Origin: Octopus vulgaris
Taxonomy: Eukaryota
Direction: 5' to 3'
NCBI GenBank assembly: GCA_951406725.2
Contig: OX597839.1
Location: 2,666,001 to 2,730,000 of the forward strand
DNA: 64,000 bases
This document shows positions 24,479 to 47,549 of the stretch, piece by piece. The position numbers and the translations under genes are program-made. Positions within the stretch are counted from its first letter, which is position 1. Every line of letters begins with the position of its first letter. Under the pieces are notes generated by a model, which was not told the DNA's origin, ran no database searches, and worked only from the letters and a program-made list of their open reading frames with translations.

Positions 24479-24848
24479 TCAATTTTGTGTGTAGTGTAGA
24501 ACCACGGAAATCAATGTGCAACATTTCAGGAAACTTTCAAATCCGAAAATCTTTGACCATTGACCTCTTGACCAAACAGCAACAACAATATAATTGACAA
24601 ATGGGGCTTCATCCTTTTATATTACCTTTATAGATTCAGGTGGTCAAAAATAAAAGAAATTCTACAAGTCCCTTATTGGTAGTTGATGAGAACAATCATA
24701 AAGTTTTCTCAGAGTATATTTTCTTTCCAAGTAAGCACATGAATGCAAAACAAGGTGGAAAAAATAGTACTTGAATACCAAAGGCAGAGTCATATACTAT
24801 TTCATTACAGCACCAAAAAAACTTTGTGCTAAAAAACCCAAAAAAACA

Positions 24849-31380: not shown

Positions 31381-31414
<34 letters not shown>

Positions 31415-31547
31415 CTGTAAATGTGATATGTGACAATTATTCGGTATTATTCGGTAATAATTGTCACATATTACATTTACAGATAAATTCCTCTATTTAC
31501 ATAATATCAAGGTCTTTTTCTTTCTTTTGTTATCTTACCATTTTTAC

Positions 31548-31603
<56 letters not shown>

Positions 31604-35726: not shown

Positions 35727-35887
35727 ATGGAGGAGACGAAGATTATTTACCACATTGACGACGAGGATACTCCTTACCTAATTAAGCTCCCTATTGCTGC
35801 CGATCGAGTAACGCTCGGGGATTTTAAAAATGCCCTCAACAGACCCAATTTCAAATTTTTCTTTAAGTCTATGGACGACGACTTCGG
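35727..35887 (+). CDS. dvl: Dishevelled, first coding exon (N-terminal half of DIX domain)
   Basis: Translates to [54 protein letters not shown], the typical Dvl N-terminus. Strong start context GGAATGG. Ends at a canonical phase-2 donor GG|GTAAGT, matching the DxDFG|VVKEE first-intron position I recall from vertebrate DVL genes. Downstream exons not found. Confidence 0.96.
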
Positions 35888-36225
35888 GTAAGTGCCGAAT
35901 AGATTACATACATACAAACATACATACATGCATATATATACATGTATGTTCCTGTGTGTACATGCTTGCAAGCATATATACACACACACCCACATATATG
36001 CATGCATACATGTAATCGATCATATACATACATACATATATACACATGCATACATATAAATCATATATGTGTGTATACACACATACGAGTACATATGCAT
36101 GCACAAATATATACATCAGTACACACACACACACACACATATATATATACATATATACACAATTATAGGCCCAGACTAGCTTGTCGATGATGTGTCTACT
36201 AGAATAAAACATACATACATACATA

Positions 36226-42412: not shown

Positions 42413-42465
<53 letters not shown>

Positions 42466-42535
42466 AACACTTTATTAATAAAGCTGCAAAGCCATCACAA
42501 AAACTGTTTCATGTTCCCGTTCATCGGACACCTAG

Positions 42536-42583
42536 AAAAACTGTCCGACGAACGGGAACGTGAAACTCTGAGTAACAGTTTTT
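42536..42583 (+). ncRNA. Minimal type-I hammerhead-ribozyme-like motif (U4C variant)
   Basis: AAAAACTGT-CCGACGA-ACG(GGAA)CGT-GAA-ACTC(T)GAGT-A-ACAGTTTTT: stems I, II and III pair perfectly, with a GUA cleavage triplet. Confidence 0.65.
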
Positions 42584-42682
42584 ATGATGGCTTTGCAGAC
42601 TTATTAACAAAGCATATTACTCTACCTCTGGTATTCGAGTATTATTTTTTCCATCTTGTTTCACATTTATGTGCATACTCTG

Positions 42683-42720
<38 letters not shown>

Positions 42721-44546
42721 ATCCAGCCTGTTTAGTGTTGACTGTTGGAAAAAAAGAGTACTTGGTACCATTGTCTAGATTAATGGTTGAGTCAGTCTCC
42801 TGCTACTTTGAGTTTCGCCTGTGGATGCAAAGGGTCTTCAGATAAATTATGATAGTCATAACTAGTCTGAAGATCCTTGCACCTCCCGGTGAAACTCATT
42901 AGCAAGAGAATTGACTCAATCAAAATAAACACACACACACACACACATATATATGTCTCAATTTAATAGACATCCAGAAAGAGCTATTTATTGTGTCATG
43001 CTAGTTAAAGTACCATAAAAGCATGAAACTATTAGTAGCTCTTTCAGGATATCTATTAAATTGATATTTAACTTTCACTGGATAGAGTAGTTTTTTGTTT
43101 TTTGCTGATTCTGCCTATATTGGACTTATAAACTATTTAAAAAAAAAAAAGGGAGTAAAGATCCCTTTTGGTCATGAATGACTGTGGGATTACACCTAGA
43201 AAGTTCCCATCCCAGGCACACGTTCAGGCAAGGTTGTTTATGGAAGACCAGCAGTCAGCCATGCATACCAGTCTCCCCCACCGATGTTGTCCAAGGGAAA
43301 GGCAAAGGCCGATACAGCTTGGCAATTCATTTCTACTGTTGAGTAAACTGGAGCAACACGAAATAACGTATCTTGCTCAAGAACACAATACACAGCTTGG
43401 TCTGGGAATTGAACTCACTACCTCATGATTGTGGACCCAATGTTCTAATCACTGAGCTGAGCACCATCGGAGTGCCAGCGTAGCCTTACTGGCACTTGAG
43501 CCCCGTGCTAGTAGGGTATTAAGAGCACCATCCAAATGTGATCATTACCAGAGCGCCTATCTGGCCTCCGTGCTGGTAGCTCGTAAAAGACACCATTTGA
43601 GTGTGATCGTTACCAGCATCGCCTTACTGGCACCCACTACACTCTCGGAGTGGTTGGCATTAGGAAGGGCATCCAGCTGTAGAAACTCTGCCAGATCAAG
43701 ATTGAAGTCTGGTGCAGCCATCTGGTTCGCCAGCCCTCAGTCAAATCGTCCAACCCACGCTAGCATGGAAAGCGGACATTAAACAATGATGATGACAATG
43801 ATGATATATATATATATATAGTATGTGTGTCTGTGTATGTATGTATGTGTTGCATGTATATATAGGGCTATAGTACCAAATTGATAAAACTAACTCTGAT
43901 GGTCGTTCTAGGGTAGGGTCATAAAACTCTATTCTGTAAGCTGTAACCATATATATATATGTATATAAAATACTTGTCTAAGGAATTGAATTCTCTGCAG
44001 TGCATATTATGATGCTTGTACCTCCTAACGAGTTACACAAATACACTCACATGTGTATGTGTGTGTATTTTTATCTATTTATATATCTTCTATTTTCTGC
44101 TTGTTTCAGTCATTGGACTGTGGCCATGCTGGGGCACCACCTTGAAGTGTCTCTAGTCAAATAGACACCTGTCTGGTACTTATTCCACAGTTCTCTTTGG
44201 ACTGCTAAGTTACGGGAACATAAACAAACCAACATTTGTTGTTAAACAAGAGAGTGGACAAATACACACATACATGCACACATGCTTATATATGTGATGG
44301 GCTTCTACATAGTTTCTGTCTTCCAAATTCACTCACAAGGTATGGACATGATCAGTCGAAATACTCAGATAATCTTTGGCATTTGACTCTGACCTGAAGA
44401 ACAAGTATAGAGCCAAGAGAATTCTGTGATATGGTCGCCAAATCATTGTAAAGCCATGTCTCTCCTACATAGTAGGGAGACAAACAATCAGGGCTGAAGG
44501 CTTTTTCAGCCTGTCTTCAGACATCAGCTTGTCCCAAATTGTGGTA

Positions 44547-45510: not shown

Positions 45511-46206
45511 TAACTGAAGCTCCAACCATTTATGTGCCAGAACATAAGTACACACAAGATAAGACCTCTCAACTGAACAGGGTACAGACTGGAGGACAAA
45601 GAAACTATGCTAGAGGGAGAGGAATAGGCATTCATTTATATCACAGTAGCATTTGTTATTTTTTGTTTTTATCTTTCTGATAGTCAAAGTTACCCTTTTT
45701 TTCCTCTACTTTTCAAACTATGGTTATGCTGTCATCCAATAAAAATTCCTTTCTTCTGCATTAAAGTAAGCACTGGTGATGGTGCCATGTTAAAAGCACT
45801 GGTGCCACATAAAAAGCAGTGGTAAGAAGCTTGCTTCCCAACCACATGGTTCCATGTTTGGTTCCACTTTGTAGATCTGTCTGTCCATCTGTCCATCCAA
45901 AAACCTACCCAGATATACAAGATCTTTTCTGAGTCATGTAAACTCATAGAGCTGGTTTCCGTGGTACATATATTTCCTGTAGGATAGGGCCCTGGTCCAT
46001 TGCAGGATTGCTCATTTTTGTCAGCTGAGTGAACTGGAATGACATGAAATGAAGTGTTTTGCTCAAGAACTCAAAATGCATTGCCCAGTACAGTAATTGA
46101 AACCACAATCTTATGATCATGAGTCCAACACCCTAACCACTAAGCCATGTGTGCCTTCATGATTTGATAGATGGAAGTGGAAAAAAAACCTGTTGTATCT
46201 ATGTAT

Positions 46207-47282: not shown

Positions 47283-47410
47283 GGTGCTGGTGCCACATAA
47301 AAGGTGCTGGTGCCACATAAAAAGCACTGGTGCTGGTGCCACATAAAAAGCACTGCTGCTGGTGCCACATGAAAAGCGATGGTGATGGTGCCATGTAAAA
47401 AGCACTGGTG
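47283..47410 (+). repeat. Tandem array of GGTGCCACATAAAAAGCACT units
   Basis: Five units of the RTE-3'UTR motif; a smaller array lies at 45770-45820. Confidence 0.8.
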
Positions 47411-47549
47411 ATGTGTGCACATTATCTCAATTCACAGTTATCTTAGATAAAATTCACAGGAATATCCCAGGTTCACTCTTTCCATCTAACTAACTAAATT
47501 ATTTAGGACACAGTTTGCATTCTATATTGAACATATCTATCTATATCTA

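What the first reader, a model, noticed from the sequence alone, without database searches (positions are those of the whole stretch)
42470..43065. Three consecutive hammerhead-bearing palindromes in the dishevelled first intron
Seen: three different fold-back units, each next to or between microsatellite tracts: 42475-42607, 42787-42919 and 42958-43064. Unit 1 contains a fully paired minimal type-I hammerhead topology (42536-42583) with an inverted partial copy on the other strand. Unit 2 has outward-facing CTGAAGA..GAAAC cores on both strands (42867-42895 +, 42812-42841 -). Unit 3 keeps only GAA-ACTA(T)TAGT-A. Established: Penelope-like retroelements carry minimal hammerheads with tiny or palindromic stem III in their pLTRs and often insert with an inverted 5' part. 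Inference: several unrelated non-autonomous PLE/retrozyme-like families have converged on a palindromic form at (TA)n sites. In pre-mRNA the fold-back would sequester the ribozyme and create dsRNA.
Basis: partly seen in the sequence, partly recalled or inferred. Interest (0 to 1): 0.72.

Follow-up and report, generated by a model that had tools for sequence, protein, structure and literature searches.

The report
Head-to-head Penelope retrotransposon end stubs
These three DNA hairpins are separate insertions of related, genome-wide repeats that are most likely the ribozyme-bearing ends of Penelope-like jumping genes; each joins a tailed and a tail-less copy head to head, likely made when both cut DNA strands copy one RNA, and the one intact ribozyme motif is predicted to be zipped shut in the host gene's RNA.

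Summary
The three fold-backs and their hammerhead motifs are real. Each belongs to a different dispersed family and runs about 70 nt past the palindrome on one side, ending in (TA)n. That is the known Penelope-like (PLE) insertion unit, inverted pLTR plus one-sided tail, with Hydra-clade-type hammerheads. The three families share tail sequence, so they are related, not convergent, and centres differ from copy to copy, so palindromes are built at each insertion. In a young autonomous Hydra family of this genome, 29 of 30 two-armed insertions have one tailed and one tail-less arm, 0 of 29 mix a short with a long arm, and short arms stop at a sharp edge just upstream of the ribozyme. Best reading: twin priming from the two RT start sites on one RNA, with short arms running off its 5' end (inferred). 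C at core position 4 is the family state (58 of 73 cores in the unit-1 family, 58 of 58 in the young family), not decay. Only unit 1 has an intact motif, predicted fully sequestered. This scan noted the same layout, run-off idea and C4 cores before, on other DNA.

The parts
35727..35887 (+). Context: first coding exon of dishevelled (DIX domain); the finding lies in the intron that follows
   Evidence: Pfam DIX 2e-19; GT donor at 35888; contigs of 4 of 4 runs stop at 35887
42416..42469 (.). (TA)n/(CA)n target tract left of unit 1
42470..42530 (-). Unit 1 tail-less arm; 10-nt deletion has removed stem III and the cut site
   Evidence: arm alignment; profile hit 42530-42469
42536..42684 (+). Unit 1 tailed arm (family 1), 136 of 147 positions identical to the long-copy majority
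42537..42582 (+). Intact type I minimal hammerhead motif with C at core position 4; predicted cut after 42574
42613..42684 (+). One-sided tail of unit 1 (about 72 nt)
   Evidence: shared by family copies, ends at (TA)n
42685..42718 (.). (TG)(TA)n tract shared by the tails of units 1 and 2
42719..42852 (-). Unit 2 tailed arm (family 2): tail about 42719-42784, decayed CTGAAGA hammerhead 42812-42841
42853..42926 (+). Unit 2 tail-less arm: CTGAAGA core at 42867, stems I-III damaged relative to the family
42927..42954 (.). (CA)n(TA)n tract between units 2 and 3
42955..43002 (-). Unit 3 tail-less arm, cut inside stem II
43000..43132 (+). Unit 3 tailed arm (family 3): 3' part of a long stem II, GAAA, CTA-T-TAG, stem I 3' strand, tail; the CTGAAAGA half-core of the family is absent because the arm is truncated

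Best explanation
The three palindromes are independent insertions into (TA)n tracts of related repeat families that are most likely the pLTR ends of Hydra-clade Penelope-like retrotransposons, each made of one tailed and one tail-less copy joined head to head, likely built at insertion when both cut target strands prime reverse transcription on one element RNA. Shown: family membership, the one-tailed/one-tail-less rule, copy-specific junctions, matched arm size classes, a sharp upstream edge for short arms, and an endonuclease remnant upstream of family 3. Inferred: the two arm ends are the two internal RT start sites found in vitro for another PLE; the two cDNAs are joined at their 3' ends with some trimming; short arms are run-off copies of an uncut RNA whose 5' end lies about 10-30 nt upstream of hammerhead stem I. 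The hammerheads are passengers; in dishevelled pre-mRNA the only intact one is predicted to be locked in the fold-back, so a host function is unlikely.
For: Families: 40 of 40 scored candidates match for units 1, 2 and 3 (first-look candidates 1042, 58, 447; lower bounds). Tail rule: 29 of 30 two-armed loci in the young family, 22 of 23 two-armed loci in family 1 (36 further loci showed one arm). Young family is an intact PLE: 717-aa frame, 2589-bp unit, RWK, DKT, CxCX5C, CxxC/CxH motifs, matching the Hydra definition (PMC8557442 section 11). Family 3 arms sit downstream of endonuclease remnants in 3 loci (tblastn to the young protein 3e-18 and 4e-5, third locus 8e-7 to the first remnant). Hammerhead layout matches Craig File S2 Hydra rows. 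Edge: family 1, 36 arm ends in the 5 nt inside vs 2 in the 5 nt outside, of 116 arms; young family, 32 of 94 arms end at -36..+38, 0 at -37..-122, 62 further upstream. 0 of 29 pairs mix short and long arms, permutation mean 13.6, 0 of 20000. 11 variants private to one insertion are on both of its arms, in 6 of 18 loci. The tail-less arm is the longer one in 11 of 29 pairs (read), which a single fold-back cannot give. In vitro, a PLE protein cuts and extends both strands, starts at two internal sites that define the tail, and uses uncut RNA (PMC11167929).
Against: No RT or endonuclease was linked to families 1 or 2; long family 1 copies extend at least 700 nt upstream as AT-rich non-coding DNA, so these two may be non-autonomous. 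No RNA 5' end was mapped. A cap-derived G was not found (G before 4 of 13 ends at the edge vs 29 of 79 elsewhere). The young family's edge is spread over about -25 to -36, not one base. Both edges follow T-rich tracts, so an RT stop could mimic a start site. Shared private variants may reflect one source copy or gene conversion rather than one RNA; private unshared differences number 28 outside two poorly aligned loci (169 with them). The young-family sample is from the first 100 of 2251 matches, all on one contig. One arm end was corrected by hand (L310).
Confidence: 0.7

Rival explanations
1. Same PLE origin, but short arms end where RT stalls or falls off after unfolding the hammerhead or on reaching a U-rich tract, not at the RNA 5' end.
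For: Edges in families 1 and Y lie next to T-runs; many ends lie between the edge and the ribozyme; no cap-G signal.
Against: No ends at -37..-122 although that stretch has T-runs; the same hammerhead is read through by all 62 long arms; stalling alone does not predict 0 of 29 mixed pairs.
Confidence: 0.14
2. One cDNA folds back (self-primes) and copies itself, or self-priming occurs on an antisense template, as proposed by Arkhipova et al. 2013.
For: Several pairs are nearly symmetric, junctions favour short palindromes, and arms share private variants; PMC3846280 proposes self-priming.
Against: The tail-less arm is the longer one in 11 of 29 pairs; a copy of a tail-less strand cannot gain the tail. 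Both outer ends are fixed at two different sites.
Confidence: 0.09
3. Non-autonomous palindromic master elements (retrozyme-like) that are copied as hairpins, with centres scrambled after insertion.
For: No ORF linked to families 1 and 2; short palindromes are the commonest class in family 1 (89 of 116 arms start at or inside the edge).
Against: All 11 short-short junctions in the near-identical young family differ; the same layout spans 100 bp to full length; no head-to-tail tandem; tails are related between families.
Confidence: 0.05
4. Miniature DNA transposons (MITEs) whose arms are terminal inverted repeats.
For: Short, palindromic, abundant, at TA.
Against: One-sided tail, variable centre, variable 5' truncation, hammerhead topology in all three families, endonuclease remnants upstream of family 3.
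Confidence: 0.01
5. The cluster is kept because it acts on dishevelled pre-mRNA (dsRNA, editing or regulated cleavage).
For: Three families within 660 bp is unusual: 84 kb around 60 family 1 copies held 0 family 2 and 0 family 3 hits; stable dsRNA is predicted.
Against: Five of six arms are damaged or truncated; unit 1 differs from its family at 11 of 147 positions like other copies; all share one target type.
Confidence: 0.03

Closest known systems
Insertion unit of endonuclease-positive Penelope-like elements: inverted 5'-truncated pLTR plus one-sided tail (PMC3846280; PMC8557442 Fig. 2 legend)
   Same: Head-to-head inverted pLTR, tail on one side only, palindrome or microhomology at the junction, microsatellite target.
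   Different: Here the whole insert is only the two pLTR ends (about 175-215 bp); tails are about 65-72 nt, not 30-40; the size classes of the two arms are coupled.
Hydra clade of PLEs, incl. Hydra-1_Obim, Hydra-2_Amil, Penelope-1_HM (PMC8557442 section 11, Files S1/S2)
   Same: (TA)n target; stem III of the act-N-agt type (unit 3 has the same acta-t-tagt as Penelope-1_HM; unit 1 the same ctgt/acag stem I as Hydra-2_Amil); extra T.T next to stem II; young relative has RWK, DKT, CxCX5C, CxxC/CxH.
   Different: All Hydra rows of File S2 have a CTGA core (their descriptor required it); family 1 and the young family have CCGA; family 3 has an 8-nt core and about 60 nt between the half-cores.
Poseidon PAc of Anolis in vitro (PMC11167929)
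   Same: Both strands cut and extended; two internal RT start sites define the tail; uncut RNA is the main template.
   Different: Different clade; there the tail lies in the ORF, here it ends about 110 nt before the first ATG of the young family; head-to-head joining and run-off were not addressed in the parts read.
Minimal hammerheads of metazoan PLEs (PMC4209133)
   Same: Type I, palindromic helix III, mostly solo, some pairs 100-700 bp apart on opposite strands, weak dimer-dependent cleavage.
   Different: That paper reports a U3-A8 variant, not C4, in the parts read, and does not explain the opposite-strand pairs.
Non-LTR retrozymes (bioRxiv 10.64898/2026.07.22.740005; PMC7229834 listing only)
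   Same: Non-coding, type I hammerhead, derived from PLE pLTRs.
   Different: Retrozymes are head-to-tail tandems; these are head-to-head pairs with copy-specific junctions.

Membership tests
EN+ Penelope-like element insertion unit | Type I minimal hammerhead with palindromic helix III in the pLTR | tested here: met
   All three family majorities pair in stem I (8, 5, 5 bp) with palindromic helix III; intact in the window only in unit 1
EN+ Penelope-like element insertion unit | Inverted 5'-truncated copy joined at the 5' end | tested here: met
EN+ Penelope-like element insertion unit | Tail on one side only | tested here: met
   All 3 window units; 22 of 23 two-armed family 1 loci; 29 of 30 young-family loci; length 65-72 nt vs 30-40 in print
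EN+ Penelope-like element insertion unit | Linked RT + GIY-YIG ORF upstream, same sense as the hammerhead (family 3) | tested here: met
   Endonuclease C-terminal remnants in 3 loci; remnants only, no RT seen
EN+ Penelope-like element insertion unit | Linked RT + GIY-YIG ORF (families 1 and 2) | tested here: inconclusive
   None found in about 1.5 kb flanks of fetched copies
EN+ Penelope-like element insertion unit | Target-site duplication | tested here: inconclusive
   Not readable in (TA)n flanks
EN+ Penelope-like element insertion unit | Internal promoter / RNA start in the pLTR | not testable with these tools
   Only contigs were offered; edge of short arms is indirect
Hammerhead ribozyme | Canonical CUGANGA core | tested here: not met
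   Family 1 CCGACGA (C4 in 58 of 73 cores), family 3 majority CTGAAAGA; met only by family 2
Hammerhead ribozyme | Self-cleavage | not testable with these tools
   Indirect hint only: 6 of 100 young-family sites start within 7 nt 3' of the predicted cut
Hydra clade | RWK, DKT, CxCX5C linker, CxxC and CxH, unit under 3 kb (young family) | tested here: met
   read against PMC8557442 section 11; no tree was built
Hydra clade | Same protein features for the three window families | tested here: inconclusive
   Family 3 remnants align to the young protein; families 1 and 2 rest on hammerhead layout, tail likeness and target only
Hydra clade | (TA)n insertion | tested here: met
Non-LTR retrozyme | Head-to-tail tandem units each with a hammerhead | tested here: not met
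   No such array at 38-48 kb; copies are head-to-head or single
Non-LTR retrozyme | Circular RNA | not tested
   no raw reads
MITE / TIR DNA transposon | Symmetric terminal inverted repeats around a fixed interior | tested here: not met
   One-sided tail and variable centre

The most novel reading that the evidence does not exclude
These stubs are the fossil record of a PLE step not yet described: an RT dimer primes both target strands on one RNA, from the tail and tail-less start sites of the same pLTR; when it engages the 5' pLTR both cDNAs run off the transcript start and are joined head to head, so the short palindromes map the element's start site genome-wide. A minority of templates were first cut by a hammerhead that carries C4, fixed in a family still amplifying, which would show that this weak core variant cleaves in animal cells.
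Probability: 0.45. Interest if true: 0.62.

Novelty: new variant of a known kind. Interest (0 to 1): 0.42.

Why it matters
How PLEs make their inverted repeats and tails is an open question (stated in PMC8557442 and PMC3846280). A young family with over 2000 near-identical ends gives counts that separate the models: tail asymmetry, coupled arm lengths, a sharp edge and shared private variants. It would also explain the many solo and opposite-strand hammerheads in animal genomes as by-products of integration rather than new ribozyme elements, and warns that descriptors fixed on CUGANGA and Rfam models miss whole active families. For dishevelled itself the cluster is most likely inert.

Tried and rejected
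Rfam: no hammerhead model at E<=10 in 40-46 kb or on 3 loci with intact copies; the models are blind to these motifs, so this is no evidence either way. Idea that the tails encode a shared peptide (note): dropped, since the young family's first ATG lies about 110 nt past its tail. Idea that the ORF is antisense to the hammerhead: dropped; the intact RT/GIY-YIG frame next to a family 3 arm belongs to another PLE with its own sense hammerhead. Search for copies of that element's pLTR returned nothing, not even itself: uninformative. Cap-derived G at the edge: not supported. Family 2 edge: too few long copies (10 exact matches). Expression: no RNA holder listed; contigs of guessed-RNA runs showed no start, end or joint on the young pLTR. 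Pfam gave no hit for the 717-aa protein and only 0.0012 for its endonuclease piece, so its class rests on motifs. Within-family covariation was not counted (alignment A1): copies decay from one master. Literature searches for a published run-off or twin-priming model of PLE palindromes or a PLE C4 core found none; Lunse et al. 2017, which I recall lists PLE hammerhead variants, was not held and may report C4.

Full report
1. Observation. The three fold-backs are in the sequence as described and far exceed shuffled controls (z -15.1, -10.9, -9.6; 0 of 200 shuffles each). Unit 1 holds a complete type I minimal hammerhead topology at 42537-42582 with core CCGACGA, palindromic helix III and a predicted cut after 42574. 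Its inverted arm lacks 10 nt that carried helix III. Unit 2 has CTGAAGA and GAAA boxes on both strands, but neither passes a pairing descriptor. Unit 3 has only the GAAA half. A DIX-domain exon at 35727-35887 ends in a GT donor; contigs of 4 of 4 runs cover it and stop at 35887, and a scan with recalled motifs found no further exon in the window, so the site is in the first coding intron of dishevelled.

2. Searches of the own genome (2.8 Gb) gave 1042, 58 and 447 first-look candidates, 40 scored each, all lower bounds. Copies carry about 65-72 nt more sequence on one side only, ending at (TA)n. True bounds are about 42470-42684 (+), 42719-42926 (tailed arm on -) and 42955-43132 (+). Units 1 and 2 point their tails into one TA tract. 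The family majorities all form hammerheads: family 1 with an 8-bp stem I and CCGACGA; family 2 with a 5-bp stem I, CTGAAGA and CTC-A-GAG; family 3 with a 5-bp stem I, an 8-nt CTGAAAGA core, about 60 nt between the half-cores and CTA-T-TAG. The window's unit 3 is cut inside that long stem II, which is why it lacks the first half-core.

3. The families are related. Sequence 3' of the ribozyme aligns between families 1 and 2 and between 2 and 3 (0 of 1000 shuffles reach the score), more weakly between 1 and 3 (14 of 1000). Convergence of unrelated elements is therefore not supported.

4. C4 is ancestral in family 1. Of 73 distinct cores, 58 have C at position 4 and 14 have T, while 18 have G5 changed to A: the symmetric pattern of CpG decay. 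Perreault et al. note that a natural U4C variant much lowers activity in vitro yet permits viroid infectivity (PMC3088659, passages).

5. Link to Penelope-like elements. Three family 3 loci have endonuclease C-terminal remnants upstream. A related fragment in a flank led to a very young family: 150 of 150 scored matches 100% identical, 717-aa frame, 2589-bp unit, hammerhead in the pLTR, 2251 exact matches to a 39-nt end motif. Its protein has RWK, DKT, a CxCX5C linker and CxxC/CxH motifs, the features given for the Hydra clade (PMC8557442 section 11); no tree was built. The hammerhead rows for Hydra elements in that paper's File S2 have the same helix III type and extra T.T as the window families, but all have CTGA cores; the young family has C4 in 58 of 58 cores. 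No ORF was tied to families 1 or 2, so for them membership rests on layout, tail likeness and target.

6. How the palindromes form. I used the young family as a near-undamaged test set: 94 arms from 70 loci drawn from the first 100 of 2251 matches (one contig; 4 arms ran off their locus and count as long; one end corrected by hand). (a) 29 of 30 two-armed loci have one tailed and one tail-less arm; family 1 gives 22 of 23, with 36 more loci showing one arm. (b) Arm 5' ends are bimodal: 32 at -36..+38 from core C3, 0 at -37..-122, 62 from -123 to full length; 1.8 expected in the short window at long-class density. Family 1 has a sharper edge 17-18 nt upstream of C3: 36 ends in the 5 nt inside, 2 in the 5 nt outside, of 116 arms from searches blind to the centre (26 vs 2 of 82 in the pattern set alone). 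(c) 0 of 29 pairs mix a short and a long arm (permutation mean 13.6; 0 of 20000). (d) All 11 short-short junctions differ. (e) 11 variants private to one insertion occur on both its arms, in 6 of 18 long pairs; private unshared differences number 28 outside two badly aligned loci. (f) The tail-less arm is the longer one in 11 of 29 pairs, which a single fold-back cannot produce. In vitro, the Anolis PLE protein cuts and extends both strands, starts at two internal sites that bound the tail, is predicted to be a dimer and uses uncut RNA (PMC11167929, parts 1-2 of 4). Drosophila Penelope starts transcription inside the pLTR (PMC2377424, passages). Together these favour twin priming on one RNA, with short arms running off the transcript start. 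That last step is inferred: no start site was mapped, no cap-G signal was seen (4 of 13 vs 29 of 79), and a stop at a U-rich tract remains possible.

7. Does the ribozyme cut? Untested. In the young family 6 of 100 sites start within 7 nt 3' of the predicted cut, against 8 ends in the 50 nt before it; this is a post hoc hint, and earlier notes of this scan say the same. For the window, the unit 1 motif forms alone (stem I 0.77-0.99, stem II about 0.49) but has probability 0.0 with the upstream arm, at a cost of 34.8 kcal/mol. Minimal PLE hammerheads also need a dimer and are weak (PMC4209133, parts 1-2 of 4). Cleavage of dishevelled pre-mRNA is unlikely; dsRNA formation is predicted; no effect is shown.

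8. The cluster. Three families within 660 bp is rare: 84 kb around 60 family 1 copies held no family 2 or 3 hit and 3 young-family hits, and 100 kb of arbitrary DNA held 1 hit. Shared (TA)n targeting is the likely cause; this was not shown.

9. Comparison and verdict. The layout is in print: inverted pLTR, one-sided tail and junction palindromes (PMC3846280, passages; PMC8557442, passages, section 11 and supplement part 2 of 59), and opposite-strand hammerhead pairs (PMC4209133). Retrozymes are tandem (bioRxiv 10.64898/2026.07.22.740005, part 1 of 5), which these are not. PMC6765202 was seen as passages. Eight searches found no paper with a run-off or twin-priming account of PLE palindromes or a PLE C4 core; Lunse et al. 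2017 could not be read and may cover C4, and the supplements of the other papers were not opened. Earlier AI notes of this scan reach the same reading on other DNA; my model was written down before I saw them and they are not independent support; they gave me PMC3846280. Verdict: real, a variant of a known kind, inert for the host as far as can be told, and useful as a quantitative test of PLE integration. Interest 0.42.

Noticed in passing
L281:2073-4223 (G000:C5); 2251 exact matches genome-wide: Very young, high-copy Hydra-clade PLE (717-aa frame, 2589-bp unit) with a C4 hammerhead; 150 of 150 scored protein matches were 100% identical.
   Followed up: yes
L195:6460-8568 (-) (G000:C9): Open 478-aa RT + GIY-YIG frame with a Neptune-like zinc-finger linker (label from PMC8557442 passages, no tree) and its own C4 hammerhead, inserted inside a family 3 element.
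   Followed up: partly
L284, L285, L315, L326, L362, L363: Six young-family arms start +51..+57, at or just after the predicted cut (+51); two continue into the ORF. Post hoc; two loci were picked for ORF length and one end is blurred by TA.
   Followed up: partly
L303/L311, L319/L332, L329/L353, L306/L344: Recurrent truncation points in long arms of different insertions (about -345/-357, -1363, -1393, -835), one at a short palindrome.
   Followed up: no
many fetched loci: At least a dozen further distinct type I hammerhead motifs in flanks, several with C4 (L115, L140) or very long stem II (L045, L086, L190, L306, L335).
   Followed up: no
window 24730-24818 (-): Decayed family 1 tail fragment.
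   Followed up: partly
window 31410-31550: Tiny head-to-head stub of an older relative of the young family, both arms 3' of the ribozyme, in (TA)n.
   Followed up: partly
L340:323-405: A young palindrome passes Rfam's gathering score for mir-9 (61 vs 58.6 bits): such stubs can be mis-annotated as microRNA precursors.
   Followed up: no
window 43150-43800, 45780-45823, 47283-47422: Other abundant dispersed and 20-26-nt tandem repeats; not identified.
   Followed up: no
G000:C1:57208859-57222573: Head-to-head array of several full tandem units of the young family.
   Followed up: no
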